Below, piece after piece: positions 219-58,696 of a stretch of DNA of 64,000 bases; the first letter of the stretch is position 1, and the number at the start of each line of letters is the position of its first letter. The position numbers were made by a program, and so were the translations under genes. The DNA is taken from NCBI GenBank assembly GCA_013265495.1, contig MU058213.1, positions 1,054,001-1,118,000 of the forward strand, given 5' to 3'. This DNA is from Vicugna vicugna (lineage: Eukaryota). Under the pieces are notes generated by a model. It saw only the letters and a program-made list of their open reading frames with translations, was not told the origin of the DNA and made no database searches.

Positions 219-1286
219 CCTGCCTCCTGCCAAGTCCCAGATTCCCTCCTCGTTTGCACCTTGGATGCATTCAGCTGACCTAAGCTACAAAGATCAGATA
301 CATCAGACAAAACTTGGTGTTGGAAGTGAAAAATAAGGAGAAATATGCTCTGCCCAGAACTTCCATTTGCCAATAAAGGTGGTAACAGAGGTAACCAAGT
401 CTGGGGGACAACGGTAGTCACATAAAAGTTGGGCGCCTGGCTTTCTGTGTTTGGTGGTGGCGGCAGCAGCATTTTCTGTATCAGATCATTGCTGTAGCAT
501 GTTTCTGGGATTGTTCCTGGATTTACATCAAGACTGTTTCTCCAGCTGTACCAACAATTTTGTAAGTGACCTGATCTCTTTTGATAAATCCCCTTTCTGT
601 TAATCCCCAGAATTATGAGTTTGTGATTTTAAGCACTCTGACCATTATGGAGGGTATATGGGATGAATGGGGTAAATGGGAATGGCTACAATCAAGGGTA
701 TAATTTCTTTCAGAAAATATTTATAGGCAGACACTGGACTAAGTAAGTGCTAGAGTGAAATAGTAAGATTCCTTTTCCGCAAGAGAAGATAACTGAATGA
801 AAGCAATTAGAATGTACTGTGATTAAGTGCTAAAACTGTGTTACATGGAAATGGTTATTGTGTTAGAAAATGGAGCAATTAACATAATGTAGGGGAGGGG
901 AATAGTTTCCACAAAGGTATGTTTGAATTAAGTTCTAAAATACAAGTAGGAGTGTATCAACAGATATCACCAACTAAGACAAGGGAAGCCACAGATTGGA
1001 GAAAGACGTTTATGATGCCTATGACCATCCATGAAATTTTTAAAAAATAAAGAACTTCCACTTCTGGGAACCTGACCTAAGACACAGACAAAAGGCAACG
1101 GTTGCCATACATGCAGTCTAGAAAATAATGGATTCAGTTCAGGAGAGCAGCTAAGTGCCAAGATGACAGCTGTGCGTTAGGATGAGAGTAACGAGCTCAG
1201 ACTGAAGCAAAGGAGACGTAGCTTAGGTCAGCTGAATGCATCCAAGGTGCAAATGAGGAGGGAATCTGGGACTTGCAGGAGGCAGG
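219..1286. repeat. 70-bp inverted repeat pair (219-288 and 1218-1286)
   Basis: The arms differ by one substitution and one 1-nt indel. Confidence 0.93.
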
Positions 1287-8999: not shown

Positions 9000-9170
9000 T
9001 CAGCCAGCCAGCTTGCTAGTAACAAGAGATGGCTTCCGCTGAGGAAGGTCCTGTGGAGTGGGAATGTGGTCACCAGTGACCTCTGTCTTATCCGGGGCTG
9101 CAGTAGGAAGCTGCTTGTTCTTCATTTTTGCTTTAGCCATGTTGTAATCCCCAGAATCAAAATATTTTTG
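9000..9170 (-). CDS. ARPP19: ARPP19 coding exon 3 ([56 protein letters not shown])
   Basis: ttgtag| acceptor and TGA at 9002-9000. Contains the FDSGDY Greatwall/MASTL site (Ser62) and the RKPS PKA site (Ser104). Exons sum to 15+41+56=112 aa. Confidence 0.97.
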
Positions 9171-13519: not shown

Positions 13520-13642
13520 CCCTTTCTGCAACCGTTTCCTTAAAAAATCTGAACCTCCAGGCTTTTGCCCCAGATGAGGATATCTTGCTTTTAATTTTGC
13601 TTCTTCAGCTTTCTCTGGACTAGTCACTTTATCTTCCATTTC
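13520..13642 (-). CDS. ARPP19: ARPP19 coding exon 2 ([41 protein letters not shown])
   Basis: tttcag| acceptor, 123 nt, phase 0/0, GGG|gtaagt donor. Endosulfine-family sequence containing Met17, the ARPP-16 start. Confidence 0.97.
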
Positions 13643-15461
13643 CTGAAATAATTTTAAATCAATTACTTCTTTATTACAATTCAGTTATTTTTGATAATTC
13701 TACCTCTTGACTATCCGGACTCTGACTTTAGTTGTCAAACGCCAAATAACGCAGCATCTGACTAAGAAATCAAGTGCAGAGGCTTTTTAAAATGTCTCTG
13801 TCTTGTTTTTCATATGATCCATGTGATAGCTCTATTATAGCTGTGAGGCATGTTTAACACCCCACACACTGGATAAAAATATCAAGATAGCTCAGCTCTG
13901 AAGTCTTGCTTGCCATTACTTTCCAGTCATGTATAACACATTTATAGTTAGTCACCTTCTTTAGAACTCATCAGCTCTTTGCCCATATTTAGAGAACCAT
14001 TTTAATACTGTTAAAGTAAAAAAGATCTTTTTGATCTCGTTTGTTCAAAATCATGTATAGCTGGAAGCTCTGAGACTCTTTAATAGAAATGAACAGCAAC
14101 CTACCATCATATATTCCTTGAATAACTCAATGCAGAAGACCTTGTTATTTTTAAAAAAGAGAAACATCATCTTTGTCAATCTTTACATCTGTGTATTTTA
14201 TTGCCAACTTTCTCCCCGTATTTAATGACAAACACTGTTCATGCAAAGATCCCATTCTTTAATAGATCAAAAACATGTTTTCTGACAAAGGACTGTCAAC
14301 ATCTTAAGCCTATTTGCTTTTAACTTTAAGAAAACAGACTTTTTCTCTTCCCAAGAGTGATATTTTATAGGGAAGCAGTATTACCACTTCATGGCAACTA
14401 CTGCAGAAGAATGAATCAAGAACAGGGCTGCCTTGATAGGGAAGGCTGAGCAATGACAAGGCATACTCTCGACTCACTGTCAAAATGGACTCACTTCTGC
14501 ATACCAGGCTCAGCAAGATCACACACCTCTGCATATCTTGATTCTTCCAAGTTATTAATGAATAGTCAAAAAGCAGGAATGTTATCCACAAATGCCAAGC
14601 CCGTTGTTCTTGCATCAATCGAGGAACTGAAGAAACAACTTCATATAATTTTTGCATGTCTTCCTCAAAAGTACATTCATAATGTTTTATAATTAGCTTT
14701 ATTCACCTTATAGATTGTCAATATTTTTTTTTCACCTTGAACAGCTTCTTTATGTGTTGTTGTATCTTCTCATTTTTAGTCTTGGAGGATTTTGGAAAAA
14801 AAAAGGCTGCTATCAAACATACATTCTCTATGAGGCCTCTTTTATGTGTACGCTCCTTTCTGCTTCAAATGTTCTACTCTCCTCTGTTTATGCTGCAGTT
14901 TCATGCATCTACATATTTTGATTTTTATTCTTTTTACCATGTTATCATTTACTCACTTGATGTACAAAAAAATTCAACTATGTGTGCTTAATCAGAGACA
15001 GAGACTCCGTTAATAAAATAGTATCAGTGATTCTGCCAGTCATTCCATTCAAAAAGGGTAAGCCACAAGGAGCTCTGCTCAAGTGTGAGGTGTGTGATGC
15101 TAACCTGCCATTCCCATGATGGTCTCAGTCCCTTAGTGTGATCTTTCAGAGTGTAAGCATGTCAACATACTCTTTATCATTCCAGTGTTTAAAAACTTAG
15201 TCCCTACAAAACAAGTCAACTATCTCAGCTGCCAATCAACTGAAGAATCAGCCCAGCCATCTGTTCAAATGCATCTTAGACAAAAACCTGACCACCACTT
15301 GACCTACTGAGAACTGATGGGTCAGTCTCCAATGTGATCATGACTTTGCTGGGATTTTTCAAGGGTGATTTTATTATTTTTTAAAGCATTTTCTTTTTAT
15401 TCAAATATATGCAAATCAAATGGTAAAAAATATAGAAAGTTAGATTTGCATTGTATTAGCC

Positions 15462-15641
15462 TTTTAAAAAATTTGTATTTTTATTGAAGTGTACGGTCAG
15501 TTTACAATGCTGTGTCAATTTCTGGTGTACAGCACAATACTTCAGTCATGTAGGAATATACATATATTCGTTTCCATATTCTTTTTAACCATAAGTTACT
15601 ACAAGATATTGAATATAGTTCCCTGTGCTATACAGTATAAA
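15462..15641 (-). mobile_element. L1 3'UTR fragment joined to U6
   Basis: CTGTATAGCACAGGGAACTATATTCAATATC...CACCAGAAATTGACAC...AATAAA is homologous to the L1 3' ends at 16720-16860 and 58280-58440. Confidence 0.9.
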
Positions 15642-15720
15642 TGCGTGTCATCCTTGCGCAGGGGCCATGCTGATCTCTGTATCATTCCAATTTTGGTATA
15701 TGTGCTGCCGAAGCGAGCAC
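15642..15720 (-). pseudogene. RNU6: U6 snRNA retrocopy, nt 1-82 (3'-truncated), fused to L1
   Basis: GTGCTCGCTTCGGCAGCACATATACcAAAATTGGAAtGATACAGAGA---TcAGCATGGCCCCTGCGCAAGGATGACACGCA matches U6 with about 3 substitutions and a 3-nt deletion. Confidence 0.95.
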
Positions 15721-15960
15721 AAGGGTGATTTTATAAACATGATTTTTGCTTTACTAACTTTAGAGCCTAACCCCTATATAAGATGTAACTACATTGTATT
15801 CATCATGAAAACTGGAGAAATAATATAAACTTAAGGTTCATAGTTCAGCATAGGAAAGTGGGCTGAGTCACTGCAGAGACTCAGGCTCAGCGTTCACTGA
15901 GGCTTCACTTCACTAGTATAGCCCCAGGGTATTGGTACTGCTGCAATTTAGAAGTGGAAT

Positions 15961-16870
15961 CTAAAGATAGGCAGAAGACCTAAACAAGCAATTCTCCAAA
16001 GAAGACATACAATGGCCAAAAGGCACATGAAAAAAATGCTCAATACAGGGAAATGCAAACAAAAACGTCATTCAAATGTCCACAAACGACAAATGCTGGA
16101 GAGGGTGTGGAGAAAAGGGAACCCTCCTGCACTGCTGCTGGGGATGTAGTTTGGTGCAGCTATTGTGGAAAACAGTCTGGAGATTCCTCAAAAAACTAAA
16201 AATACAGTTACCATATGATCCAGCAATCCCACTCCTCACTATATATCCAGAGGGAACTCTAACACGAAAAGATACACACACCTCAATGTTCACAGCAGCA
16301 CTATACACAGCAGCCAAGACATACAAGCAACCTAAACGTCCATTGACAGATGACTGGATAAAGAAGTTGTGGTATATTTATACAATGGAATACTACTCAG
16401 CAATTAAAAAAAGAATGAAATAATGCCATTTGCAGCAACATGAATGGACCTGAAGATCATCATTCTAAGTGAAGCAAGCCAGAAAGAGAATGAAAAATAC
16501 CGTATGATATGACTTATATGTAGAATCTTAAAAAAAAAAAAAGGTGGGGGGAAGAGGACATTAATGAATTCATCTACAAAACAGAAACAAACTCCCAGAC
16601 ATAGTAAACAATCTTATGGTTACCAGGGAGGAGGGGATGGGAAGGGATAAATTTGGGAGTTTGAGATTTGCAAATGTTAACCATTATATATAAAAATAGA
16701 TAAACAAAAAACTTCTTCTGTATAGCACAGGGAACTATATTCAGTATTTTGTAGTAATCTTTACTGAAAAAGAATATGAAAACAAATATATGTACATATA
16801 TGCTGACTAGGACATAATGCTGTACACCAGAAATTGACATATTTGTAACTGACTACAATTAAAAAAAAAA
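15961..16870 (+). mobile_element. 5'-truncated L1 (ORF2 C-terminus, 3'UTR and poly(A))
   Basis: The ORF at 16076-16423 has the CX3CX7HX4C knuckle. TSD AGAAGTGGAAT at 15950-15960 and 16871-16881. Confidence 0.93.
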
Positions 16871-17669
16871 AGAAGTGGAATTGGTAGGGATCTACTCTTG
16901 GGTTCCCCCTGTAAAGTTGTTTTTTAAATTGGTTGACATTAAATTTAAACACTGGCTGAAAAGACTCCAACTTTTCAGTCCCAGCACCTTCAAATTAAAG
17001 GTGTTAACAGAGTCCTACATTTCATTGTTTGATTTGAATGATCAGTTCTCTATATCTGAGAACAACTCCCTAAAATTTCTAGTATGGGGTAGCAACTTTT
17101 TCTAGATTCCAGTGTTTCTTCAGGTTCTCCCCATTTTATATATGAGGAAAAACTTTGTATACAATATGCCATCTTATCTGGCATTCCCTTATTTTAATAA
17201 GGAATATATTTATATATAGTCATATATAATGAATTGAATGAAGTGATTCAGTTAACTTGAAAGTTTACTATTACAAGAACAATTTAGGCAAAACAGCACC
17301 TACAGCTGAAAAAGTATCATTTAGACTTATAATAAATTTGCAATGTGTCCTAGAAAAACAAACCAATTCTTGAACTTTGTCAAATGCAAAGCAAAATGGC
17401 AAGTCCCTGTTACTTGCAATTTTGTAGCTAGATTCAGAATTTCAGCTGTATTTAATACCTAAAAGGGAAAAAAATATGACCAAAGCTACATTTTTAAAAT
17501 GTAGTCAATACCATCAAGACATCTACAATACTCTTAATGGATCATACAGAAACATTCTTAAACCTTTTGCAGATATAGACAGTTCTAGGACTTTACTGAG
17601 AAGCAAGTTCAAATGCTTGGATGTTCACCAACGTTCTGACACAGGTACAGATTTTCTTGTGAAGTATTA

Positions 17670-18165
17670 ATAACACATCAGGCGGTGGACTGCGTCCGTG
17701 AGCATTCAGGCCACACTTAACCCTTCTCTAAACACTCCTCTGAATCACTACAGTTAGAAGCCTGAAAGTACATTTTCCAGACTGCATTCCTGTAAGGTTC
17801 TGCCAATGGCATCTATACCAGATTAAAAGCTATGGGACAAAGAATCCATTCTGTTCCTGGTGATGCCACCAACAAAGTACAGGCAGCAGTAGCTCCTGTG
17901 AGTTCCTGCCAGAGGGCATCGAGCACAATATAGTAGCCACTGTAGCACCTACATGAGATGGGGGTGGAGGACGCTGGACTAGGAAGAGTGCTCACTCTTA
18001 CTGGGTCAAAGGCTTTTTGTAATCCCACACCTCTAGAAACATCTTCTCCCTTTTGCTACTCTATCCTCTTCAACAATTTGTAACCTAATCCCCTAAATCA
18101 TATCCCTTTCTGTTTGAAATAACCAAAGTGGTTTCTATTCTCCAGAACAGGACACTAACTGATAC
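17670..18165 (+). mobile_element. Degenerate ERVL-type solo LTR (LTR33/LTR16-like)
   Basis: TTTGTAACCTAATCCCC...ATCCCTTTCTGTTTGAAATAACC...GTGGTTTCT...CTAACTGATACA terminus. Confidence 0.55.
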
Positions 18166-18439
18166 AATCAGGTATAAGAAGCAATTTATCCCTATAGCCA
18201 TGTTAAAAAATGCAAAGAAGGACACAAAATTTGGTGTAACTGCATGTTTCTGGACATCCTTCAAAGGAATTTCTAAACATTTATTCTAGTTAGAATGGAA
18301 ATACATCCCTCAAAAGGTCTGAGATAAAGAAGGAAATAGCAAACAAAGAAACTGATATACATGCATGTATACTGACAAGTCACTTTTCTAACTTTTCCCC
18401 AGCTTTACTGAGATATAATTGGTACATTCACTTTCTTTA

Positions 18440-18588
18440 TTATTGTATTATTTTTTAATTCTTTTTTGTTTTGGGGGGAAGAGGTAATTACGTTTTTTTT
18501 TTTTTAAGAGGAGGTACTGGAGATTGAACCCATGACCTCGCCTGTGCTAAGCATGTGCTCTACCACTTAAGCCATGCCCTCTGCCCCC
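18440..18588 (-). mobile_element. tRNA-Ala-derived camelid SINE (Vic-1 type)
   Basis: Reverse complement of the GGGG...GTGGTAGAGCACATGCTTAGCA...GGGTTCAATC..CAGTACCTCC head plus an A-rich tail. Confidence 0.88.
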
Positions 18589-19156
18589 TCACTTTTCTAA
18601 TTTTAATGTTTTAATATGTGAGGTTAAAAAAAAAAGAACAAAAATATGTAACAGTATTTTTAGAGTTTAAATGCTCTATATTCCTGTATCATTTAGAAAA
18701 GGATTTATGATATTAATCATACATTTTGTTTAGTTAAGGATGCATGGTAAAATTTCAAGAGGAATCAATGTAATAATAGAAATAAAGTACACAGCTTCCA
18801 AAACTAATAATAGTATTGGGGTAAAAGGGAAGAAGAAAATTGAATCAATCAATTGAAAAGAAGAAGAGTTGGGGTGGGGGGCGGAAGAAGAGCAAGAAAT
18901 GAGAGGGAAAAAAAAAACAGACCAAAAGCTTTCTCAGGGATACAGAGGATCTAATGTTCATGCCTCTTTAAAAAAAAAAAAAAGTCTCAAAATATATAAA
19001 GCAAAAATGGACAGAATTACAAGGAATAACTGATAAATCTATCAGCAAAGGAGATTTCAACACATCTTCCTCATACTGGTAAATGAAAAAGACAAAGCAG
19101 TCAAAGCACGTGACTTTAATTCTGCACCCAACAATTAGAAAATACATACTCTTCTC

Positions 19157-19296
19157 GGGGGAGGGTGTTGCTCAGCATGTGTGCGCTTAGCATGCAAGAG
19201 GTCCTGGGTTCAATCCCCAGTACCTCCAATCAATCAATCAATAAACTTAATTACCTCCCCCTCCAAAAGACAGACAAAAAAAGATTAAAAAAAAGA
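19157..19296 (+). mobile_element. Vic-1-type SINE
   Basis: tRNA-like head with a B box. TSD AGAAAATACATA(C/T)TCTTCTC at 19137-19156 and 19297-19316. Confidence 0.9.
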
Positions 19297-19809
19297 AGAA
19301 AATACATATTCTTCTCAAGTACAAATGGAAAAACTGACTAAGTACTAGGCCACAAAGCAAGTCTTAACCATTTTCATCCAGACCACAATCTACGACTGCA
19401 ATTCATAAGATTAAAAGTCAATTATTTAAAAATGTATATATCCCTGCCATGTGGAAATTAAAGTACAATACTAAATAATTCATGGTTAAAAAAGGAATCA
19501 CGGGAATAAAAAAATACTTGGAACTCACTGATATTAAAAATTCTATGCATACCAAACTTGTGGAATACAAGTGTCCTTTAAGGGCTTATATTACAGAGGA
19601 AAACTAAAACTCACTGACCTATGCACCCAACTTTAGAAGTTAAGACAAAGAACAGAACCCAAAGAAAATAGGAGAAAATAAAAGGCAGATATTAATGAAT
19701 AGAAAACAAAGATACAATAGAAAGGATCAACAAAAGGGAGAAATGACAAGCTTTACCAAGAAGAATGTATTTTTAAAAAATCAATCTGGTTTCAAAACTT
19801 TACTCTCCA

Positions 19810-20876
19810 AAGGTGTAGAGAAAAGGGAACATTCCTACACTGTTGATGGGAATGTAAACTGGTGTAGCCACTATGGAAAACAGTATAGAGATTCCTTAAA
19901 AAACTAAAAATAGAGTTGCTGTATGATCCAGGAATCCCACTCCCAGGCATATATCCAGAGGAGACTCTAATTCTAAAAGATACGTACACCTCAATGTTCA
20001 CAGCAGCACTGTTTACATTGGCAAAGACATGGAAGCAACCTAAATGTCCATCAACAGATGACTGGATAAAGAAGTTGTAGTATAAAGACAGAAATAGACT
20101 CACAGACAGAGAATACAGAGTTGTGGTTGCCAGGGGGTGGAGGGTGGAAAGGGATAGACTGGAATTTCAAAATTGTAGAATAGATAAACAAGATTACACT
20201 GTATAGCACATGGAAATATACACAAAATGTTATGATAACTCACAGAGAAAAAAATGTGACAATGAGTGTGTATATGTCCATGAATGACTGAAAAATTGTG
20301 CTGAACACTGGAATTTGACACATTGTAAAATGATTATAAATCAATAAAAAAATGTTAAAAAAAAGAATAAAGATCACCTATAGTTTCATCACACACACAC
20401 AAAAAAGGAAGTTGTGGTATACATACACAATGGAATACTACTCGGCCATAAAAAAGAATGAAAGAAAAAAGAATGAAATGCCATTTGCAGCAAAATGGAT
20501 AGACCTAGAGACTATCATAGTACGTGAAGTAAGTCAAATAGAAAAATAAATATATGATATCACTTACATGTGGAATCTAAAATAGGACACAAATGAACTT
20601 ACACACAAGTGAACTTATTTACCAAACAGAAACAGACTCAAGACACAAAACAAACTTATTGTTACCAAAGGGAAAAGGGGGTCAGGAAGAGATAAATCAT
20701 GAGTCTGGGATTGGCAGATACAAATTACTATATACAAAATAGAGAAATAACAAGATATACCATACATATATATATGTATGTACACATACACATATATATT
20801 GAATCACTTTGCTATACACCAGAAACTAAAACATCATAAATCAACTATACTTCAATAAAATTAAAAAAAAATTAAG
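19810..20876 (+). mobile_element. 5'-truncated L1 interrupted by a younger L1 fragment
   Basis: ORF2 3' end plus 3'UTR. TSD TTACTCTCCA at 19800-19809 and 20877-20886. Confidence 0.88.
20085..20407 (+). mobile_element. Young L1 3'UTR nested in the older L1
   Basis: Nearly identical to 58170-58440. TSD GAAGTTGT(A/G)GTATA at 20071-20084 and 20408-20421. Confidence 0.9.
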
Positions 20877-21933
20877 TTACTCTCCATGAAACCTTTGTGT
20901 TATATAGCAATTTTATTACTTCTTAGAAACAGAGCTGGAATATGAGTGAATTCACCTAGCTAAGTGGTTTCTGCTGATAATACCTTTGGGAGGAGGAGGG
21001 AAGAAGCATTATTCGAATTCTGAAACTTTCACTCTAGGCTACAAACTAGGAAAGCAGAAACCCAGAATATCACAACAGAGGTATATGCTTAGGATGTACC
21101 CAAAACCACAAAAAACAAAAACTTAAAAACACTATTTTAAATGATAGTTATTCTCTCGACAAGTAACCTATACCCCAAAATAATCTTTGCTGCATATTCT
21201 ACAACTAGCATAGGGCCTAACATTTATTAATATTAGGCACTTGCATTTTTGTGAACTATTCTATTGAAATACATTAGCTATCCTTTCTGTAAGTGAGTGG
21301 GGGTATAAGGTATAAATATATATATATATAATCTATATATAAATAAAGGATATCCAAATAATTAGGGATTATTTTATAGTCTGCCATGGACTTGATAGTA
21401 AGTCTGAATGATTTATACCACTTTCCAGCCTTCAGCAGGGAAGTTACACAGCAACATTAGGAATAAGAATCTGACCACTCTAAGCAAATTCTCCTCTATC
21501 TGCTCAGCAATATGTTCAATGATGCACTAACTGATAAACAAATAGGAAAGATTAATGAAAGCCAATAAATCCTTTGAGATACTGTCAGGAAGGTTCCAAT
21601 ACTGCTACTAACCTTTATATTCTTTAGTCCTAATAGTCTGTGCTGCTTACCCAGCGCCTGGCGTTTAATGGGTGCGCAATAAAAGTCTACGAATGAATGA
21701 ATACAACGCACTCCAATTGTTTTTCAAAAATTAAGAAACTTTCTAAACACCAGTTTCCCCATCAGCTTACCTTTGAAATATTTCATGTTATAGTTGATAT
21801 TTACAAGTTCAGGAATAGAATTTGTTAAGTATTAAAGCTTTGCACAAACAACAGAGACAAGCCTAAAACACTGTTGTACAGCAAACTGCTGAGATGCCAA
21901 GGAGAGACATTTTTAAACTTTTCTGAGGATTAC

Positions 21934-22020
21934 CTCAAGACTGCTAAGAATCAATGGTTCACACAAACCAGACTAGCAGGTTGTGCTCCAAACTGAAAAT
22001 ACCCTGAGCCTTTTAGTTAC
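21934..22020 (-). other. ARPP19: Candidate alternative 5' exon for the ARPP-16 isoform
   Basis: Non-repetitive segment in intron 1 ending TTGAG|gtaat. An in-frame TAG precedes Met17 if it is spliced to exon 2. The 5' boundary is unknown. Confidence 0.4.
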
Positions 22021-23989
22021 CAAAGGCACTGTCAAGACAGTCCCAGAAAATGCCAATATTAATTGTAATTTTTTAAACTGGGAAAATGGAAAAGCTTTTT
22101 ATATTCATTCTTTACTGATGACATAATAAATTATAGTTCTCTTCCTCCTCCACCACTCACAAAAGCACCAAGCATATCTTTTAAACTGAAGAAAATATTT
22201 AAATTGAGCTCTACTTAAGTCTTTCCCAGGAAATCTTATTTGATGAATCTCAGTCAAATCTCTAGAAAACCTGTCTTCTAGAGAACCTGCTATTAAGATC
22301 TTCTTGAAAAAAATTAAAAACCACAGTATATATATGAAAATATATATACATATAACATCCTTCTACTTTCATTCAGATTTCTTAAATGGGTCTAAGCCAA
22401 GGTTTTTATATTTCCATGGTCTCTCTCTCTCTTTTTAACTGCAGTACCAGCATTGCCATTTGTATTGGAATAGTGGTTTTAATGAATTTTTCCCTGAACT
22501 TTTCAGTTATCTAACATGTTCTGAACAATGCCAGGTACTATGCTAGGTGCCATGGGAGAAGAGGTAAATAAAGGAGGGTCCCAAGCTTAAAATGCTCACG
22601 ATGAAAGCAGAATTACGTGTTTTAAGTCTCCATATGACTCTCCCCACCCCCAGGATAAGAGTGCATGCCAGTCTTAGGTTAGTGTTATTCAAAATGAAAG
22701 TCCCTGCTAAAATAATGTTTTGTTGTCATTTCAGTGATAATCTAAAAGAAAAATATAAGCATATTCTAGGGCATCTGAATTGCCACTTTTATGTCTAAGC
22801 AGTGCTACGGTATTTCTGTGTCTGAGCTTTCATTCATGGTGACTAAGACTCAGCAGTACTACCCCATTTGTCCAGGGAACAATGAGAAAAGAACAAAGCT
22901 GAATTTAGAAATCTAAATGATGTACCTATGACTTTAGAGTTAAATGACCATACAGCTTACTCTCAAAAGGGAGAACTGAGTGAGTCATCATTTGAACTAG
23001 GGGAGTGTTAACTTGCCATACTCAAAACGCTCCTGCACTTTAACAATTGCTACCATCTTCTCAATATATTGGAGATTTAGTTTCAGCAAAATACCATGCC
23101 ACAGTGAATTAATAATTTGGACTGTTTTTGTTTGTTTTAGTTTTAGAGTGGTATAAAAGATAGTTTATAGTTATTTTTACATTTGTAGTATTTAATTATT
23201 ACAGCAATAAAAATTGTGTCTTACAGTTTTCTTAACAAGGGTACACACAGTACTCAAGTAGATGTACAGTGATTTAGCTCTTATTCCCATGTTGAGCTCA
23301 CCTCCTTTCCTTAATTCTTCAGGGACAACAGGCTATGTATCATAAAACTATAAAAAGTTATTTTGGCTGAATACTTTGGCTTTAATTGAAAGGTCACCTC
23401 AGTACACAGACTATAATCTAATTTTTTAGGTCACCTAACTATTCTTCCAAACAGAAGAAACAGGTGATTTGGCCCACAGGAACACAGAAGTGACTCTGCA
23501 CATTTTCCTCATGTTTAGGGATGGTATCCATGCTACGCGCACTTAACATCTACAGCCAACCCTTAATTCAACAAGGGACATTATATTACTAACACACTTT
23601 GGTATTAATGACAGCAGCCCTAAAACCAAAGAATTAAATTTTTAATGTAGACAGAAAGAGAAAACATTCAAGGCAGCCTTAATCTTGTTAAGAGACAAAA
23701 TATTAGGCTGTCCCAAGTGAAAGCATTTGCACTGCAGAAATCAACACTCTACCTTTGGCAACATACTAACAAATCTCATAAAAGAGAATTACATAGCACC
23801 TGTTATTGTACATCAGGTTGATTTTAGTGTTTAGGACAAGACAGCACAAACATGAGTTTGTTGGGTTTTTTTCTGGGTTCCTAAATCCCAAGCAATAATG
23901 AACATCATGATAAATATTTTACAATAAATACATAACATTTAATATTACAGTTAGGATTACAATCCTTTAATTACATATCTGTATATATG

Positions 23990-23992
<3 letters not shown>

Positions 23993-24029
<37 letters not shown>
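23993..24029. repeat. (AC)18 microsatellite
   Basis: Perfect dinucleotide run read directly. Confidence 0.95.
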
Positions 24030-24030
<1 letters not shown>

Positions 24031-24769
24031 TTGCCCCCAAAGTTCACTTTTTAGCAAAGAGTGAATATCCAACATAGTTATCACTGGAATATTCTCGAAT
24101 AATGTAGTGGCTTGCATTAATCTGTGCTGCTTGCCCAGTACTTGGCATTTAATGGGTGTTTATGATATTGCTTTTTTCTCCAGTTACTTTACAAATAGTA
24201 TCATAACAGAACCATCCAATTCAGGAAAAGTTAACATGGCAAAGAACTTATAGAATGGCTATAGAACACTAATCAAATTTCCAGCCTGATTAGAAGCATG
24301 GGTGTAATTTGAAGCAGAAGCTGTTACAAAATCCAAGTATTAGACCAAATCCTATTTATGATAATGCCCTCTGTCTTTTTAAGAAAAGGTATTGGCAACT
24401 CACCATAAACAATTAAAGAAACAAGATATCATGGACCTTTGTAGGCCAGCCACAAGTACCCAGGAGGGCAGGGCAGCAGAAATAATTACGGTGGCAGAGG
24501 GAGCACTAGCCTAGAAAAATAAAAAGCCCTTGTATTTTACATTTATATTTATAATTTGAATCCTACTGATCCGTGGCATATTTCTGTACACCAGCAAGAT
24601 ATTACAAATGAGTTTACAAAATGTTCCTATTACCACGAAAGACGTAATCAACTAAGTTGTTAAAAAAAATTTAAATTCCGACCTTTCAACTTTTAGTCAA
24701 GTACCATATGCAAATTCCACTGGCTCACATTTCTGAACAACACGCTGCGCCAACGCCCTGAGCTAGCAC

Positions 24770-24915
24770 CTCGTTTAAGCCTTCCAACCACCATATCAAG
24801 CAAGGGCTATTATTCTTATTTTACAGATGTGGAGGTTGAAGCCTGAGGAGTTTAGCAACTGACCAAGGTTACACGGCCAACAGTAACTGGACCTGAAATT
24901 CCAACCCAGGTCTAA
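24770..24915 (-). mobile_element. MIR
   Basis: ATTTTACAGATGTGGAGGTTGAAGCC...CCAAGGTTACACGGCC core. Confidence 0.65.
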
Positions 24916-25341
24916 CTTAACGCCCAAACACAAGACACCTCCCTTGGAGTTAAGAGCACGCAGACAATACAAGTAGTTGGCGATTCATTCTCCGGGGGGA
25001 AAATAAAGCTTCCTGAGCCAAGTGAGGCCCACGGGAACACTTAGGTCCCACGCCTAAGGACCGAGTCTCGGGCTCTTGAGTACAAGCAAGTGATTAAGGA
25101 AAAATCCGACATGTCGAGGCCTTAGAAAAGGCACGTTTCGGCCAAGACGTGGAGAACGCTTGGACCCCGCACCACGCCAGCTACTATCAGAGCTCTTGTG
25201 GGCGACGGATTCCGAAGTGTCTGGCCTCCCAGACTCCGCACCGGCGCCGGGCTGACTCGGGACGCGCCCCTCCGTTTGCGAGCGGAGCAGGCCGTCACCG
25301 GGCCCTCCCGGCTCCCGGGCCCGCTCTCCGCACACACTCAC

Positions 25342-25386
25342 CTTCTGCTCCTCCGCGGAGGCTCCTTCGGGGACTTCCGAAGACAT
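25342..25386 (-). CDS. ARPP19: ARPP19 coding exon 1 (MSSEVPEGASAEEQK)
   Basis: ATG at 25386-25384 with A at -3, 15 codons, then AAG|gtgagt donor. Matches the ARPP-19 N-terminus and lies inside the CpG island. Confidence 0.96.
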
Positions 25387-25748: not shown

Positions 25749-26639
25749 TTATGGGCGGAGCTTTCTCTGCTCCCTTGCCTGCCTCTTCTGGTCCCTTTGA
25801 TCGCAAGAACTTTTCCTATTTCCACTTCCCCAGACTTACCTAGTCGGGTTCTCCTCGCTCCCCGCTTCGCGGCCGCACAGACTATTTTGGGCGACCCAAA
25901 GCTCTGTGCTTCACAAGTCGGCTTCGCCTGCCTAACCCTATGTGTCTTTCACATCCCCAATACTACGTCATCGCCTCAGGCTTTTCCTGAGCCCCGACAC
26001 TATACGCCAGACCCACCTCTTAAATGCTGTCACATCTCTGCATAGTTCTTCAACAACGCACGCTGTATTATTAGATAGTATTTGTTGTGATTACTCTATT
26101 AATGTCACCTTTCCTGCTCAGGAAAGTCACATGAGGGCATGGACTTCCTCCATATTTGCTTTTATTTTGTTCCCTGAGCCCAGCAATTTCTAGGTAGTCA
26201 CTACATATCTAATGAAGGAATTCGGCTTTCATTCGTGTGACTATTCCCAGGGTTCCATTCCCACAACTTTACTGAAACTGCTGGCACCAAACCCCTCCAA
26301 TGACCTTCCTAATTGCCAAATCCTTTAGCTTCACATTTAATTCTTACTCTACTTGACATCTGAATAGTTACTGGCAATATGTGGTAGTTCCAATAAAGTG
26401 CCTCTTGGAAACTTGGAATAAGATTGCTCTCTAAGGATTAAACTAGTAAAAAGCAACAGATAATGCAATTCCGTAGGAATTTGGAAACCATCAAAACTCA
26501 ACCACAGTGTCCTGGGTAGAATCTCAGGCAGGAAGCGTTGCACTGGGATTACAACCTGAAAAACAAAAAGTGCACTCCCTTTGGAGAAAGGAAAGAAGAG
26601 GTTTGTCAGACAAGGGAGTATTTAAAATACAAGGGTTTA

Positions 26640-26773
26640 GGGGGAGGGTATAGCTCAGTGGTAGAGTGCATGCTTAGCATGCAAGGTCCTGGGTTCAATC
26701 CCCAGTACCTCCATTAAATAAATAAACAAACCTAATTACCCCCTCAAAAAATAAATGATTAAAAAATAAAATG
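26640..26773 (+). mobile_element. Vic-1-type SINE
   Basis: A box TAGCTCAGTGG and B box GGTTCAATCC. TSD AAATACAAGGGTT at 26625-26637 and 26774-26786. Confidence 0.92.
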
Positions 26774-27503
26774 AAATACAAGGGTTCGAGAGGCCAACTC
26801 TTTGACAAGGCTATCCCTTGAGAGTGACTTAAGCTAGACCAGCTGAGAAACTTAAGATCAACTAAATATTTGTTCTCATTTCCTACTCACAAAGTAACCT
26901 ACTGAAAATTTGCCTTTCCTTTATGCAGACCTACAAGGAGAAAGGAGAATGCACTAGTTAGGCTAACTGAATCATCTAACAGTTGTATTTTTATTAATAA
27001 GTTGTCATTCTGATATATATCTTATATCAATGTATTTGTGAGCTAAAATCAGATAGACACATATATAGCAAATCAGCAATATGTAACTTTAATCTGTTTC
27101 TAAAAGATAGTGACACTCTCATGAGGTCAAGTTTGAATTTCTGAGCAGTAGATTTTGGCCAGTGGAGAATTCATAGAGGATGTGCCCCGTTGTGGGGACT
27201 GTCTGAGAAGCCATCCTTCCCCAAGTAATACCCCTGTGCATAATGGACCATGTACGTTAATATTTAAAATTATGCACTAATCATCAGGACCCTTTTTCTC
27301 AGAATTTTCTTCCCTTGACCTCTAGGATACCACTCTCTTGTTCTCTCCTTCTCTGGTCATTCCTTCTTAATCTCCTTTGTTGAGTTTTTACTGCCTCCTA
27401 AGGGAAAAATTCTAACAATCCTGTTCTTGGATCCCCTGCTCTTCTAGGTTTACACTGAGAGATTACTTCCACCCTCAACTGCCATTTATATATTCCAGGT
27501 CAG

Positions 27504-31909: not shown

Positions 31910-33435
31910 CTAAACAAAGACACAAGAAGAAGATGCGTCATTTTAGGGAATTGGTGTTTAAAATAAGCAAACCTGAGTAATTACATTTTGAAAGCAGGAA
32001 GAATTAGTCTTGCTGTGATATTGACAGGATCTCTTTATTGAGATATTTAAAGTCTTACATTGCCAAAGCTCGTGCTGCTATTTAAGTGCCTCTTCCTATT
32101 CTTTAAATGTTCTGTACTCCCTTCCCTGCTTACAATGACAGAGTTGCTTCTTTCTGTATATCTGGGTTTCACGTACAATCCTGCTTTACCTCCCCGGCAC
32201 CACAGCACATACCTTTCCTCATCTACAGCATCCAGTTTCAGTTCATGCCAGCCAATTATATTTCATTTGGGCTTTGCAGGCCCAGCACCTTCTAGCTACA
32301 CAGAATGACCCATTTCACACAATTTGCCCTCCTACAATTTTGAGCATACTAAAAAGGATTCCATACTTGGAAAGTCATCACAGAAAATGATCAAGTTTCG
32401 AGGACAATCACAGGATGAGAAAGGATGAAAGGACTGCTATCAATCAGCAGTGGCTAGCTAAATAAAGCCTAATCATCATTAAAAAAAAAAAAAACAAGAG
32501 GAAAGTTAGCAGTGAAATGAAAGTAGTTACCAAAGCTTCTATCCGCTGCTTAAATCTACAACATAATATAGGGGGTTGGAGGCTTTAACCACATAAATTT
32601 AACTGGCAGATAGTCAAACATACCGTTTGGTGCTAATTTCTCTGGTTTTCTCTTTGCATAGCAGAAATATTCTGTGTTTGTGGACTTTATTCCTAAATTA
32701 GCTGAAAAATCTGGTGGTCAGTTGTATATATTAAAGCAGACCCCTGACTGGCTTACTCATTCTTTCTGAAGTTTTTCACCTTCTCAACCTGAAGGAGAAC
32801 ATGGTGAACTTTGGGAATTATGCCATATTTTCCAAAGCAGTTTCTTTACAGCATTTAAAGTATCTAATCATGATGTGGGGATTATAAAAGCTGAGATAGT
32901 TGATTTTTACTTTGGTTAATGTTGGTTACATACAGCTAAGGTTGTAACAGATTAAAGAGGTCCTCTGCCTGGGCCCTGGAAGGAAGGTGCCTCCTCCTGA
33001 TGAATAGGGCTCCCTGGAGTAAGGAATTACACTAAGATAAATTACTGTCACTGACATGATTGAGGACTTACTGTGAACATCAGAAAGTTATTAGGAACAG
33101 AGTTACAGGCAAAAGGCTATGGAATTTTCTTTTAACCAATAGACTTGCTCATTGATCCTAAGAACTACACTAAGATTTCAGGGCTGAAAACCTTACCTTA
33201 GGATGCTGGGAGCATGGACCTCAAGAGCCAATAGATGGTTTCTCACAACTTAGATGTGTGAGCTGGGTAGTAAAAATCAGAGGAAAACATATTTCTGATG
33301 GGATCACTAGAATACAAACTGTCTGAGGACAGAGATTTTGTCACTGCTATTTCCCTGTAGTCTAGAAGCATGCCTGACACATCAACACTTGAACAAATGA
33401 ATGAATAAATGAAGGTTAAGAACTTCCCTGTCCTT

Positions 33436-33541
33436 GGGGAGAGGGTATAGCTCAGTGGTAGAGTGTGTGCTTAGCATGCATGAGGTCCTGGGTTCAATCC
33501 CCAGTACCTCCACAAAAAACAAACAAACAACAACAACAAAA
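33436..33541 (+). mobile_element. Vic-1-type SINE (short-tail form)
   Basis: TSD AACTTCCCTGTCC at 33421-33433 and 33542-33554. Confidence 0.92.
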
Positions 33542-33547
33542 AACTTC

Positions 33548-38861: not shown

Positions 38862-39016
38862 ATTATTTTTATTTTTTTAATTTAATTTAATTTAATTTAA
38901 TTTTATTTTATTTTATTTTATTTTATTATTTTTTTTTTAATGGTGGTTCTGGGGATTGAACCCAGGACCTCGTGCAAGCTAAGCACACACTCTCCCACTG
39001 AGCTAAACTCCCCTCC
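38862..39016 (-). mobile_element. Vic-1-type SINE with an expanded (TTTAA)n/(TTTTA)n tail
   Basis: Reverse-complement tRNA-like head at 38941-39016 plus a patterned A tail. Confidence 0.88.
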
Positions 39017-48060: not shown

Positions 48061-49064
48061 TATATTTAAAACAAGTCCATGAAAAAACAAATCTTACTGT
48101 CTTGGAAAATACCATGGTCAGAGTAAGCGTTTCTATTAGGTACCAGAAAGGATGATGAAAAGCTAATATTCTAAAGGCCAAGGTAGGTTTGTGACAATTA
48201 TAGTTTTAGGAAATTGGAAACTACTATTTGATTAAACCCGTATGTTGGAAAGATGAGATCTTCTGTTGAAAAATAAAAATTGGGAACAAGATATAATTTT
48301 AAGACTGTAATATCCAGCAAAACTAATCTGTATAATAAAAAAGATGAACCATGGTCATTCAAATTTGGATCAGGGAAATTAAGGTAGTTAAGTAGTTTCC
48401 CATACTCCAAGAACTAATACAAATTTATATCTCAATAAAGGATATTCAAGCCTAATCACACTTTTCTAAAATTAAGAAATAATTTGGTAGAAGGTCAAAT
48501 AAAATGGAACTAACTTAAATATCTTTGATTTATATAGTGCATTAAAAACACATCATTCTTGTTTTAAAATTGAGGAAGTTGAGGTTTTTGAAAGTTAATG
48601 TGATTTATTCAGCTTCACTCAAAGAGCAAATTGTCAGTACTGAAACCCAAGTATTTTGACCAACAGCCCAGTGATTTCATTTCAGATATCCCTAAAATCC
48701 TTAGCTGAGCATTGGCATAACGCAATGCATAACGCACATTAGGCCAGAGCTGCTAACAAACAACACACTAAAATTAACTATACAAGTTTCATTTCCGACT
48801 TCTATTTACTCTTCAGCAATTGTTAACAGTACTGAAATAAACATAAAAGGGCAACCAGAAGAATTTACCTAGCACGTGCTCTTTAGTGGGTGCATTATTT
48901 GCAAGGATATTAATACTAGTTCTATATTTTAGGTTTACTATATCAGACTGTGTGTTTTATAAATAATGGGCATCTTGGGCCATAATAATTAGATCTCCTA
49001 TAAACAAAATGCAAACTATAACAAATGTTTGAGGATTATATTTGAAATATTAGCTATTACCTAC

Positions 49065-50910
49065 CAATACCTCTGTATTTTTCAGTCGTTCACACGTAGA
49101 CAAACAGTCTTTTACATTCTTTCTCTGAGAACGGTTTTGAGATTTTTCATCAATTGGATCTTCTTTCTTATCCTGTTCATTTTTTAATTGATCTGGCTTT
49201 TTGCATTTGAAACCTTCGTTATCTTTATTGAAATAATTTTCTATACTATTAAGTTGAGTATTTTGCTCACATGGCTTGGGCCTTTTTGACACTTTATTTG
49301 AGCACGCATTTTCGTGTTTGTTCAAATATCCAGACATTTCCAACACAGTAACTTTTATTTTTGAGTCATTTATTTTTGAATGATCAAATTGGTGATTGTT
49401 TAAAGATTCTGAATTATAATTTCCATTTATTATTATTTTGTCCTTATACCTATTTGGGCAAATCTGTTTGTCAGTACTGTTGCAACTTGAATACTGTTTA
49501 TCAACTTCATTAATTTCTTGCTCCTTAAACTGACACTCAGAAAGTGTGTTTTCCAATCTGATTTTCAAATCTAAGTTATTTTCTTTGCAATGAGACATAT
49601 TTGAGGGAGTCATTAGACCAGTGGCTTTGTTCTGTGTCTCTTGAAATGTACTTTGGATTTCACGAGGATTGTCCTGATACAGATTTCTTCTTGTCTGAGG
49701 TTTCAAAGAAGGCTGGACTTTACTACTGCATTTTAAAGAACTAAAATATTTGTTAGGTATTAAGTGTTTCCCTTCACTGATGTCATCTAGCAAGGAAAAC
49801 TTTGTGTTAGAAATGGAAATAGAAGCATCATCCTTGTTTTTCTTCAACAGATTTTTGTCTTCGTAGGAACTCCTGAACACTTTAGAAGGAAGTGAACTGG
49901 AGCCCTGCGTGTTGAATGACTGCCGGGGTATGTGAGATGCCGTTGGGTCGATATGCTCCAAGTGTTGAGCAATCCTTGCAATAACATCTTGCCGCTCCTG
50001 GAGTAAACAGCTTATCAAAGGATTAGTCTCACCAACAGACTGACGAGAATGAAGACCATTAGAGATGCAAGTGTCACTCCGAGGGGTTTCTGGTTTTACT
50101 CGAATTTTCCCCTCATTGGTGTTTTCTGAGGAGGTGAGCTCTGGAATACCAAAAGAAATGGAGAAAGTTTCTTTACATTTTCTCACATTTTCATTTTCTT
50201 GTGAAACTCGGAGAAGTTTTGAATTAAGTGAACTAGATTCTTGTGTATTAAGTGGGTGTCCAGAAACATGTGAAGTGCTTGGATCACAATGAATCAAATG
50301 CTGAGCAATTCTTGCAATAACTTCTTGTCGTTCCTGAATTAAAGACCCTATTAAAGGATTAGTCTCACCAACTGACTGCCAAGAATTCTGGCATCTAGAG
50401 ACACTGGAGTCAATCACTGAAAATGATTTTACAGTTCTCACTGATGTTTCATGTGATTTTTTATCTCCTATACCACTAACGCCCAGAATATTGCCTTGAG
50501 ATGTTCCACAGTCAGATTTACTGCCAGCGCCTGGATATAGTTTGACATTTTTGACAGCTGCTGTATATTCTGGAGTTGTGCCATTTTTTGCATGTAATAA
50601 TATGCTTTCGGGTGCCATCATCCAAGTTTGTTTGCTACACAGACGCTGTGAACTGTTTGTACTACATTGTTCTGCTTCAGTAGAATTTCGGTGCTGATGG
50701 GTTTTAAGTTCATGCTCTTGAATCCTTTTCTCATAAAGGCCAATATTAGTGTGAATACTACAGGTCAAAACTGGGTAATTAGATTGTCTGGGCAAGGACT
50801 GAACGCTGACTTTCAAGGCCACATTGTGAGAAACATTGGGAACAGGAAACACATGTTCAGTTGGAGTCTGTGAAAAATTCCACTGTAGGTCTACATCAGC
50901 AGCACTGATT
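49065..50910 (-). CDS. ATOSA: ATOSA large internal exon (1846 nt)
   Basis: Corresponds to the 600-aa ORF. ttctag| acceptor at 50911 and TTG|gtaggt donor at 49064; phases fit both neighbouring exons. Confidence 0.95.
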
Positions 50911-50960
50911 CTAGAATCACACAGAAAAAAATGGAATCAATGGATTATAAAACTGATCAT

Positions 50961-55045: not shown

Positions 55046-57289
55046 TCCTCAATTACCTCATACATGGCTTCTTTCACTGTGGCTATAAATTTTGTCTTTA
55101 TATATACTTTAACATATGTTTGTAAAAATATTAATAAAAATTATATTTAACACATATTATAATAATTCTTTTTTGAATATTTGTGGTATAGGATTTATTT
55201 CCAGGAAAAGGACTCTAATTCATAATAATGTGCCAACTTGGGGGAAGAAAGAGAGGTCTCAACTTTCAACTCTCCTCCAGGAACCAATTAGGTCATAAGC
55301 GAAAGATCTCCTGTGGTCTCCTGAAACCCACTGAATTAAATCATGGTGTCCTTCAGAGGGAAGCAAAATATGTACAAAGAAATTCCTTCCTCTGATGGTT
55401 CTGTGGATTTTCAAGGTGAGCTCAGGCTGGCCATGAACTGGCTACTTGGCGTGATTTTAGCTCCCGGAAAATTTCTCTGGGCTCATCCTTTCCCCTCTCT
55501 CAGTGTGCGCGGTAATCAATCCTGGAGAGCTAAGAATTATGGAAGAGCAGTGGCTCCTAATCTCTGGAATGCTGAGGGATGCCAAGATGTCAACTACTCT
55601 GTGAGTACCAAGAATGGTCCACAGCCTAAGTAATGTCTCATATATATTTGGCACTATTTAAAAATACATAATACATATAATTTGTCTCCAAAGCCCTAGC
55701 AGGAAATGGCTTACTCCCATACTAGAAATTATCAAGTTTCAAGTGATAAAAACTAAACTGTTATGAAAAAGCACTTTTTAATAATTTAGTATTTCACTGG
55801 AATTGGTTGCTTTGGTCATTACCTCTTCAGATAGCAAACTAAAAAAATCTCCAAAGCCATGATTGAAGTCTGCAGTCCTTTGGTTATTTTGCTGAACTTA
55901 GCCAAAGTATTCAATATTAAAATGAAAAAGGTGCAACAAAGATTAGAGATGACAGTAGATACCTATTAGTTATCTATGTAACTATGATATAAGTATTGCA
56001 AGGAATAGTATGGATTATACAATGGTATTATGAAACACATAAAATACTAGCTAAAAGCATGTGACTATGTGATGATGACAACCTTTAGAAACCTGTCAGG
56101 AAAAATTTATGGGTGTCTGAATTTAATAAACGAGAATACTGAAGCATGTAGTCATTAGAATAGCTGCATAGTTAAAATTTCGGTAATTTCAACCTCTAAA
56201 AGTTCTGCCAAAGAGCAGAGTTTACTGTAGTAAAGAATATGACTAAGTAATGGGAAATATCATGTCATGCTAACGAAAATTCATGAGACACAATTTGATA
56301 CTTTGAGGACATGGCTCACTCCAGAAATAAGGTATAATTTTAGGGTCTCTAAAAATAATTTAGTTTAACAAAACAGTTTTCAATCTGGACAAATAGGTGC
56401 TGTAGGCTTACCTACTAGTTATATATTTTAGAAGAGAGAAATTATTTGATGTAAAATATGATTTTGAAGAGAACAGAAAGGAAATTGTAAGTTTTCACAG
56501 GCTATTGATGACAGACCATTAGCGGCTGGGGATTCTAGAGTTCCTCTATCCACAAGGCCTCAGTCTGACCAGGAGCCATGACCAGTCTAGCGGCCCTTTT
56601 AGTGGCACGCTCTTCTGGCTCTGGAGTTCAGCCATCTTAAAGTTCCTCATCTGTTCTGTTCAACAAAAGAGGTGAACAATTTGGCCACTAAGAAAAGCTT
56701 GAAGAGTCAGAATGATCCACAGATGAAACAGACTAACTTGGGAAGTAATTCTTCATCACCAGGGATCTACAAGGACAGACTGATAAACACTTGCCAGGGG
56801 TGTGGTTGAAGGGATTTAGACGCCAAGTAGCTGTATTAGGCTTACAGTGGTTCCTTCCATCTCGAGAGACTATGTATCTCTGCTCTTCAGAGTAGTCCAG
56901 TAAAATTCCAGGGGAGAGGCCAGAACCATCACTTCCTTCTTGGGAGGCCCTAACCAGGTGCCCCTCTGAACCAGTACTCATCATATACACTTATTGATGG
57001 TGTCTCTGGATCTTTGATTTAGAACAAAAACCTAGAATACTTCAACGCTCTGTCTAAAGAAGTGGAGGAAGAATGTCCTCCTCACTGGGCTGCTGTATAT
57101 GCTGTTCAGTTTACTTCTAAGCCTGCCAAGGTAGTAGACTTCACACCCTTCACGATGTGGAATAAAATAGCAAGAGAAGCATGAGAACAACCTGTGGGGC
57201 CGCTAAAAAAAGAGTGTCTCTAAAAATAATGTCCTTTCAACTTTATGGTGGACAATTTGGTAATATGAAATCAAAATTCTCCTTTTATG

Positions 57290-58444
57290 TCTCAAAAATT
57301 TTCTCTTACAAGAAATAAAAACAAGAATAAACAAATGGGACCTAATGAAACTTACAAGCTTCTGCACAGCAAAGGAAACAAGAAGTAAAACAAGAAGAAA
57401 ACCTACAGAATGGGAGAAAATTTTTGCAAATGAAACCGACAAAAGCTTGATCTCCAGAATATATAAGCAGCTCATACGACTCAATAAGAAAAAAACAAAC
57501 AACCCAATCCAAAAATGGGCAGAAGACCTAAACAAGCAATTCTCCAAGGAAGACATACAAATGATCAAAAGGCACATGAAAAAATGCTCAATATCACTAA
57601 TTATCAGAGAAATGCAAATCAAAACTACAACGAGGTATCACCTCGCACCAGTCAGAATGGCCGTCATTCAAAAATCCACAAATGACAAATGCTGGAGAGG
57701 CTGTGGAGAAAGGGGAACCCTCCTACACTGCTGGTGGGAATGCAGTTTGGTGCAGCCACTATGGAAAACAGTGTGGAGATTCCTCAAAAGACTAGGAATA
57801 GACTTACCATATGACCCAGGAATCCCACTCCTGGGCTTGTACCCAGAAGGAAATCTACTTCAGGATGACACCTGCACCCCAATGTTCATAGCAGCACTAT
57901 TTACAATAGCCAAAACATGGAAACAGCCTAAATGTCCATCAACAGGTGACTGGATAAAGAAGACGTGGTATATTTATACAATGGAATACTGCTCAGCCAT
58001 AAAAACCGACAACATAATGCCATTTGCAGCAACATGGATGCTCCTAGAGAATGTCATTCTAAGTGAAGTAAGCCAGAAAGAGAAAGAAAAATACCATATG
58101 AGATCGCTCATATGTGGAATCTAAAAAACAAAAACAAACAAACAAACAAAAACAAAGCATAAATACAGGACAGAAATAGACTCATGGACAGAGAATACAG
58201 ACTTGTGGTTACCAGGGGGGTAGAGGGTGGGAAGGGATAGACTGGGATTTCAAAATTGTAGAATAGATAAACAAGATTACACTGTATAGCACAGGGAAAT
58301 ATACACAAAATGTTATGATAAATCACAGAGAAAAAAATGTGACAATGAGTGTGTATATGTCCATGAATGACTGAAAAATTGTGCTGAACACTGGAATTTG
58401 ACACAACATTGTAAAATGATTATAAATCAATAAAAAATGTTTAA
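57290..58444 (+). mobile_element. Young 5'-truncated L1 with an open ORF2 C-terminus
   Basis: Uninterrupted frame to 58124 containing [26 protein letters not shown](T/C)CTCCTTTTATG at 57273-57289 and 58445-58461. Inserted into an ancient L1 remnant. Confidence 0.95.
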
Positions 58445-58696
58445 AAAATCCTCCTTTTATGACTTTATCCCAAGGAAATAATAGAACAAGTACACAGAGC
58501 TGAATGTAGAAGAATATTTATTAAAATGCTTATAGCAGTTAAAAATAATCAGAATCAACCTAAATGTCCAACAAAAATGGACTTGATAAATAAACTGTGG
58601 TACAGTTTTATCTAAAATAATGATATAGATCTACTTTAGACAAGAAAGGTTATCTACAATGTAAGTGAAAATACAACTCTCAAAAGAAAGAATTGA

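What the first reader, a model, noticed from the sequence alone, without database searches (positions are those of the whole stretch)
15360..15734. Three-part retro-insertion: truncated U6 + L1 3' end + apparent 3' transduction inside one 15-bp TSD
An exact CAAGGGTGATTTTAT repeat flanks the unit (15360-15374 and 15720-15734), with a T/AAAA-like L1 endonuclease site on the minus strand. Read on minus, the order is U6 nt 1-82, then ~180 nt of L1 3'UTR with AATAAA (15480-15485) and a decayed A tail. About 85 nt of non-L1 sequence follows, with its own AATAAA (15396-15401) and a short A tail abutting the TSD. U6/L1 chimeras are established and usually carry full-length U6. A 3'-truncated U6 points to template switching or ligation of a cleaved U6, and the transduced tag would identify the source L1. 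A single event would have joined three RNA sources.
Basis: partly seen in the sequence, partly recalled or inferred. Interest (0 to 1): 0.7.

Follow-up and report, generated by a model that had tools for sequence, protein, structure and literature searches.

The report
Shortened U6-L1 retrocopy with extra tail
A dead copy of most of the U6 splicing RNA, fused to the end of an L1 jumping gene and a short extra piece of DNA, was pasted into a gene's intron, most likely in one step; it is an uncommon but expected mix of known L1 accidents, and where the extra piece came from was not found.

Summary
The anatomy is real. An exact 15-bp target-site duplication encloses, on the minus strand, U6 nt 1-82, 179 nt of L1 3' UTR, and an 80-nt non-L1 segment with its own AATAAA and short A tail. 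It sits in intron 1 of ARPP19 (name recalled). Best reading (about 0.6): one L1-driven insertion. An L1 read-through RNA carried a short 3' transduction, and reverse transcriptase then moved onto the interior of U6. Neither decisive test was achieved: no source locus for the segment and no empty orthologous site. The segment's origin is therefore inferred, and a nested second insertion or a later deletion at the U6/L1 junction remain open. Each ingredient is known. In a human catalogue 5 of 177 sense U6/L1 rows end at or before U6 nt 92, and 248 of 349 transductions in a nanopore study are under 100 bp. A second apparent short transduction lies 4.6 kb away in the same intron. About 0.1-1 such triple-looking elements per mammalian genome are expected. 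Uncommon, not new in kind.

The parts
15720..15734 (-). Target-site duplication, 5' copy; its last base (15720) is also U6 +1
15642..15720 (-). U6 snRNA nt 1-82, 3'-truncated; three substitutions and one 3-nt deletion at positions conserved in the Rfam model
   Evidence: (RF00026, 72.8 bits), differences read by eye from its alignment
15463..15641 (-). 5'-truncated L1, last 179 nt of the 3' UTR, ending in a short A/T-rich tail with 4 A
   Evidence: 72-81% identity to four other L1 3' ends of the window
15480..15485 (-). L1 polyadenylation signal AATAAA
15383..15462 (-). 80-nt non-L1 segment, 22.5% GC; candidate 3' transduction, source not found
15396..15401 (-). Second AATAAA, 13 nt before the final tail
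   Evidence: chance of an AATAAA in a given 21-nt window of this intron about 1.8%
15375..15382 (-). Final A-rich tail (8 nt) abutting the TSD
15360..15374 (-). Target-site duplication, 3' copy
13643..25341 (-). Host intron 1 of ARPP19 (gene name recalled from the peptides); the element lies in the same sense as the gene. Coding exons at about 25342-25386, 13520-13642 and 9000-9167

Best explanation
One target-primed reverse transcription event by a camelid L1. Step 1 (inferred): a source L1 was read through its own weak poly(A) signal and polyadenylated about 90 nt downstream, at a genomic AATAAA. Step 2 (footprint shown): ORF2p nicked a T-rich site in ARPP19 intron 1, primed on the new tail and copied the 80-nt flank plus 179 nt of L1 3' UTR. 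Step 3 (inferred): the cDNA moved onto U6 snRNA at nt 82, at the start of a short A-run, and copied U6 to its first base. Step 4 (shown): the insertion resolved with a 15-bp duplication. Two RNA templates, three sequence origins. The product is a dead pseudogene with no sign of function. I weight the U6 truncation as internal template switch about 0.5, ligation of a cleaved U6 about 0.25, later deletion about 0.25.
For: A single exact TSD encloses all three parts. No repeat longer than 5 nt flanks U6-L1 alone. All parts are in one orientation, in the order L1 - short A tail - unique sequence - AATAAA - 13 nt - A tail - TSD, which is the layout given for partnered transductions (passages). In nanopore data 248 of 349 transductions were under 100 bp and 274 of 349 ends had a poly(A) signal nearby (passages). 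Rates of 2.5-25% of L1 insertions are reported. A second L1 fragment in the same intron has the same layout, with a 36-nt extra piece inside a 15-of-17 duplication. U6 begins exactly at nt 1 against the TSD. 20 of 23 listed runs, under 6 organism labels and 8 studies, hold 0.84-0.93 of the sampled words of 14750-15950. The insert is 30% of that stretch, so these runs carry at least much of it and an assembly artefact is unlikely; one run may be the window's own source.
Against: The source locus was not found: 0 matches in the window, metagenome contigs, Rfam or earlier findings. None of these holds a camelid genome, so the blanks say little either way. No empty orthologous site was obtained. 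A 7-nt A/T repeat abuts both ends of the extra segment (15469-15463 and 15385-15379), which a nested insertion could also leave. The L1 subfamily consensus is unknown here (best window match 79% over 158 nt), so a longer subfamily 3' end is not excluded. Doucet 2015 state that internal switching had never been seen for U6/L1, and Moldovan 2019 treat truncated U6/L1 cDNAs as RT-PCR artefacts. At most 1 nt of junction microhomology is visible against the window's L1 copies.
Confidence: 0.6

Rival explanations
1. Later deletion: an ordinary full-length U6/L1 chimera (RtcB ligation or terminal switch), with or without a transduction, lost the last 24-25 nt of U6 and some L1 after insertion.
For: 168 of 177 sense U6/L1 rows in the human table reach U6 nt 100 or beyond (counted by eye), so full length is the usual starting state. 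This copy already has a 3-nt deletion inside U6 and is old enough to have 3 substitutions in 79 nt (3.8%, 95% interval 0.8-10.7%).
Against: It needs an extra event that crosses the junction. The TSD is still 15 of 15 identical. Shares of 0.84-0.93 in all 20 holders show no obvious large length difference among them, though that listing cannot resolve a 25-nt change.
Confidence: 0.2
2. Two insertions: a U6/L1 chimera came first and made the 15-bp TSD; a 5'-truncated 80-nt retrocopy of some RNA's 3' end later landed in its T/A-rich tail.
For: A 7-nt repeat abuts both ends of the segment and contains an endonuclease-like T/A step. Doucet 2015 name sequential insertion into the 3' extremity as one explanation of tripartite structures (passage).
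Against: The A part of that repeat is expected under every model, leaving 3 T as the only extra match in very AT-rich sequence. A TSD normally starts at the nick, which would leave only 4 nt. It needs a second hit in a 20-nt target, in the same orientation.
Confidence: 0.12
3. The segment is the 3' end of a different repeat or of a longer L1 subfamily 3' UTR not represented in the window, so the unit is only two-part.
For: No camelid repeat library could be searched. The closest window L1 is only 79% identical.
Against: An AATAAA plus tail already ends the L1 part at the same place where the window's copies end. Local alignment of the segment to 7 L1 3' regions (the insert's own and 6 others) was no better than shuffles: 41-296 of 300 shuffles scored as high.
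Confidence: 0.1
4. True three-RNA chimera: reverse transcription began on a cellular mRNA's tail, switched after 80 nt to the L1 RNA's 3' end, then to U6.
For: TSD-flanked tripartite chimeras exist: mouse B2-U6-L1 and fungal WEIRD-SINE-LINE (passages). The segment looks like an RNA 3' end.
Against: It needs two switches, the first landing exactly on the L1 tail. A read-through RNA gives the same layout with one switch fewer, at a rate of several percent or more.
Confidence: 0.08

Closest known systems
U6/L1 chimeric pseudogenes (Doucet 2015, PMC4476161; Moldovan 2019, PMC6789731; Law 2026, PMC13174262)
   Same: U6 from nt 1, in sense, fused directly to a strongly 5'-truncated L1; endonuclease-like site; TSD in the usual range (6-19 bp in Moldovan).
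   Different: U6 stops at nt 82 and lacks the oligo(U) end that RtcB ligation uses; a non-L1 segment follows the L1 tail.
Sense 3'-truncated snRNA/L1 chimeras: U5/L1, U3/L1, and the minority of truncated U6/L1 rows
   Same: snRNA 5' part joined internally to an L1 3' end. U5 truncated at 78, 83 and 98; human U6/L1 rows ending at 51, 54, 67, 89 and 92.
   Different: None of the listed human U6 rows ends at 82. That sheet gives no TSDs and does not record 3' transductions.
Short partnered L1 3' transductions (PMC13009371; PMC4862182)
   Same: L1 - short A run - under 100 nt of unique sequence - AATAAA 10-30 nt before a second tail - TSD.
   Different: Here the source locus is not mapped, and the 5' end carries U6.
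Tripartite chimeric retrogenes (Gogvadze 2007, PMC2104539)
   Same: Three sequence origins within one TSD of 14-16 bp.
   Different: Those have the LINE last and need two switches; here the third part lies 3' of the L1 and probably came on the same RNA.

Membership tests
U6/L1 chimeric pseudogene | U6 copy from its 5' end fused directly, in sense, to a 5'-truncated L1 | tested here: met
U6/L1 chimeric pseudogene | One TSD flanking the whole unit at an L1 endonuclease-like site | tested here: met
   site TTAT/AA, or TTTT/A with a 13-bp TSD
U6/L1 chimeric pseudogene, canonical RtcB type | Full-length U6 ending in 4-8 T at the junction | tested here: not met
   U6 alignment ends at nt 82; definition
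U6/L1 chimeric pseudogene | Both parts absent together at the orthologous site of an outgroup | tested here: inconclusive
L1 3' transduction | Non-L1 sequence between the L1 tail and a second poly(A) signal and tail, inside the TSD | tested here: met
L1 3' transduction | The segment maps directly downstream of a source L1, or of its empty site, elsewhere in the genome | not testable with these tools
   no genome held; no read alignment obtained; searches of non-camelid collections blank
L1 3' transduction | The segment is not part of the L1 consensus or another repeat | tested here: inconclusive
   absent after 6 of 6 other window L1 ends and no better than shuffles; no camelid repeat library searched
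Tripartite chimera by double template switch | Three separately transcribed RNA templates | not testable with these tools
   depends on the source of the 80-nt segment

The most novel reading that the evidence does not exclude
A germline three-RNA chimera in an order not seen in the papers I read: a cellular RNA's 3' end, then the L1 3' end, then an internal jump onto U6, all within one TSD. It would show that ORF2p can start on a trans RNA, jump back onto L1 RNA and then enter U6 internally, without the oligo(U) end that RtcB needs. A bolder form, that the U6-L1-segment unit was itself re-copied as a small U6-headed family, is also untested (about 0.03).
Probability: 0.1. Interest if true: 0.5.

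Novelty: new member of a known kind. Interest (0 to 1): 0.25.

Why it matters
Modestly. Whether U6/L1 chimeras arise by RNA ligation or by template switching is still argued. A TSD-flanked germline copy with U6 cut at nt 82 cannot come from ligation of mature U6, if the cut is original. The extra segment, if a transduction, would name the parent L1 and so give the exact pre-junction sequence, making microhomology measurable at one truncated junction. One old copy cannot settle the mechanism, and human rows with truncated U6 already offer better material. The locus may also serve as a camelid presence/absence marker.

Tried and rejected
Own-genome search: none held. Alignment of public runs to the element: no result was obtained, so the empty site, the source locus and the copy number stay untested. 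Exact 24-nt pattern of the segment in metagenome contigs: 0 matches; uninformative, as that collection is not a camelid genome. Segment as local templated DNA: best match in the rest of the window reached by 6 of 40 shuffles, rejected. Segment as a duplicate of the L1 end (72% over 32 nt): 89 of 300 shuffles scored as high, rejected as chance from shared AATAAA and A-runs. Segment as decayed poly(A): only 30 of 80 bases are A, rejected. Segment as a structured RNA: two inverted octamer-like motifs form a 9-bp stem, but z = -0.54 with 53 of 200 shuffles as stable, and Rfam gave 3 matches, all far below gathering score, rejected. Separate TSD around U6-L1 alone: longest shared stretch 5 nt, rejected. 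Earlier findings: none near the locus, none with a look-alike segment. Literature: searches returned 0, 3, 2 and 2 listed papers; none of the passages I read describes a U6/L1 chimera with a 3' transduction. The library lacks most subscription papers; Buzdin 2003, Gogvadze 2005, Garcia-Perez 2007 and Hasnaoui 2009 were seen only as citations and may hold such cases. The supplements of Doucet 2015 were listed but not read, and those of Moldovan 2019 were not opened.

Full report
Setting. No whole genome is held for this window. Minus-strand frames give three exons whose peptides I recognise as ARPP19, at about 25342-25386, 13520-13642 and 9000-9167, and a large exon I recognise as FAM214A/ATOSA at 49050-50936 (both names recalled, from no call). 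The element lies in ARPP19 intron 1, in the gene's sense. It fits the tRNA-headed SINEs seen by my recall, but no tool named the organism.

The observation. A 15-nt exact direct repeat stands at 15360-15374 and 15720-15734 and nowhere else in the window. Chance for a 14-nt recurrence anchored at the U6 start is 3.5e-6 within 400 nt by composition; the empirical background is 12 of 62,987 positions. Rfam places U6 on the minus strand from 15720 (72.8 bits). The true match ends at 15642, U6 nt 82 once a 3-nt deletion is counted, with three substitutions at conserved model positions. From 15641 the sequence is L1 3' UTR, 72-81% identical to four other L1 ends in the window, with AATAAA at 15485-15480 and a tail ending in 4 A at 15463. 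Then come 80 nt (15462-15383) of 22.5% GC, against 38-39% in the flanks, with AATAAA 13 nt before an 8-nt A-rich tail that abuts the TSD. An AATAAA in a given 21-nt window of this intron has about a 1.8% chance. The description is confirmed.

Presence in other samples. Of 23 runs listed for 14750-15950, 20 hold 0.84-0.93 of 113 sampled words, under 6 organism labels and 8 studies; 1 holds next to none and 2 are not indexed. The insert is 30% of the stretch, so runs lacking it would score near 0.7 or lower. I infer that it is genuine and shared among close relatives. The listing ranks by holding, so it would not show animals with an empty site. Three substitutions in 79 nt is 3.8% (0.8-10.7%). 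At a recalled neutral rate near 2e-9 per site per year that is roughly 4-50 million years, which would postdate the split from pig and cattle (recalled, about 60 million years).

The extra segment. It is not decayed poly(A), not a local template, not a duplicate of the L1 end, and not a structured or catalogued RNA. None of 6 other L1 ends in the window continues into anything like it. Its source was not found in the window, in metagenome contigs or among earlier findings, but none of these is a camelid genome. A search for an orthologous intron returned 2 loci of 596 pattern matches, neither aligning to this intron. No read alignment was obtained. The layout matches a partnered 3' transduction. 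In one nanopore study 248 of 349 transductions were under 100 bp. Reported rates run from 2.5-8.8% in primate germline calls to about 25%. Against this, a 7-nt A/T repeat abuts both ends of the segment, so a nested insertion is possible, and an unsampled L1 subfamily end is not excluded.

An in-window comparison. At 20087-20364 a younger L1 3' fragment (94.7% to the copy at 58169-58448) is nested in an older L1. It is followed by 36 nt of non-L1 sequence with AATAAA and an A run, inside a duplication matching at 15 of 17 bases (20068-20084, 20405-20421). This looks like a second short transduction in the same intron. Its source is equally unmapped, but it suggests such tails are ordinary in this genome.

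The truncated U6. Doucet 2015 wrote that internal initiation had never been observed for U6/L1 chimeras, while reporting it for U5/L1. Moldovan 2019 showed that RtcB joins mature U6 to L1 RNA, and set aside 11 of 64 RNA-seq junctions with truncated U6 as likely artefacts. The larger human table of Law 2026 (Table S2, U6 sheet, read in full and counted by eye) has 180 rows, 3 antisense. Of 177 sense rows, 5 end at or before nt 92 (1-67, 1-54, 2-51, 6-92, 18-89) and 9 before nt 100. That sheet lists no TSDs and rests on RepeatMasker ends, so some may be decay. A further 23-row U6 sheet has one more, 2-90; it is not in the count. Truncation is thus a minority form of about 3% (0.9-6.5%). Here at most one base is shared across the junction with the window's L1 copies, and the parent L1 is unknown, so switch, ligation of a cleaved U6 and later deletion cannot be told apart.

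Mechanism and base rate. The simplest account is one event with two RNAs: an L1 read-through transcript, then U6. Five truncated chimeras times a transduction rate of 2.5-25% gives about 0.1-1.3 such elements per human-like genome, assuming independence and human rates (my arithmetic). TSD-flanked three-part chimeras by double switching are also known. I met no published U6/L1 case with a 3' transduction in the searches, with the limits given under Tried and rejected.

Papers seen. PMC4476161: parts 2-5 of 10 of the text plus passages; supplements listed, not read. PMC6789731, PMC2104539, PMC13009371, PMC4862182, PMC13756887, PMC8605555 and bioRxiv 10.1101/2024.08.27.596794: passages only. PMC11838501: passages and section 21. 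PMC13174262: passages, Table S2 whole, Table S3 parts 1 and 3 of 3.

Verdict. Real and well preserved, most likely a single L1 insertion combining two known accidents. New member of a known kind; interest 0.25.

Noticed in passing
window 20068-20421 (+): Younger L1 3' fragment (20087-20364) nested in an older L1, followed by 36 nt of non-L1 sequence with AATAAA (20366-20371) and an A run, inside a 17-nt duplication with 2 mismatches: a second apparent short 3' transduction in the same intron.
   Followed up: partly
window 15409-15420 and 15440-15451: Two inverted octamer-like motifs in the extra segment, 2 of 7 exact octamer matches in the window; the hairpin is no more stable than shuffles.
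   Followed up: yes
window 15958-16870 (+): An older 5'-truncated L1 (about 900 nt) begins 224 nt from the element on the opposite strand; its 3' end is the best long window match to the chimera's L1 part, 79%.
   Followed up: partly
window 57264-58448 (+): L1 3' fragment with an open 286-codon frame resembling the ORF2 C-terminus (identity recalled), apparently a young subfamily.
   Followed up: no
window 18448-18594, 19157-19306, 26637-26780, 33434-33543, 38911-39016, 58691-58840: Six copies of a tRNA-headed SINE; three reach the Rfam tRNA threshold.
   Followed up: no
window 49959-50050 and 50295-50386: A 92-nt internal repeat (84% identical, 336 nt apart) inside the large coding exon; both copies encode a similar peptide.
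   Followed up: no
window 219-288 and 1218-1286: A 70-nt inverted repeat, 97% identical, about 930 nt apart.
   Followed up: no
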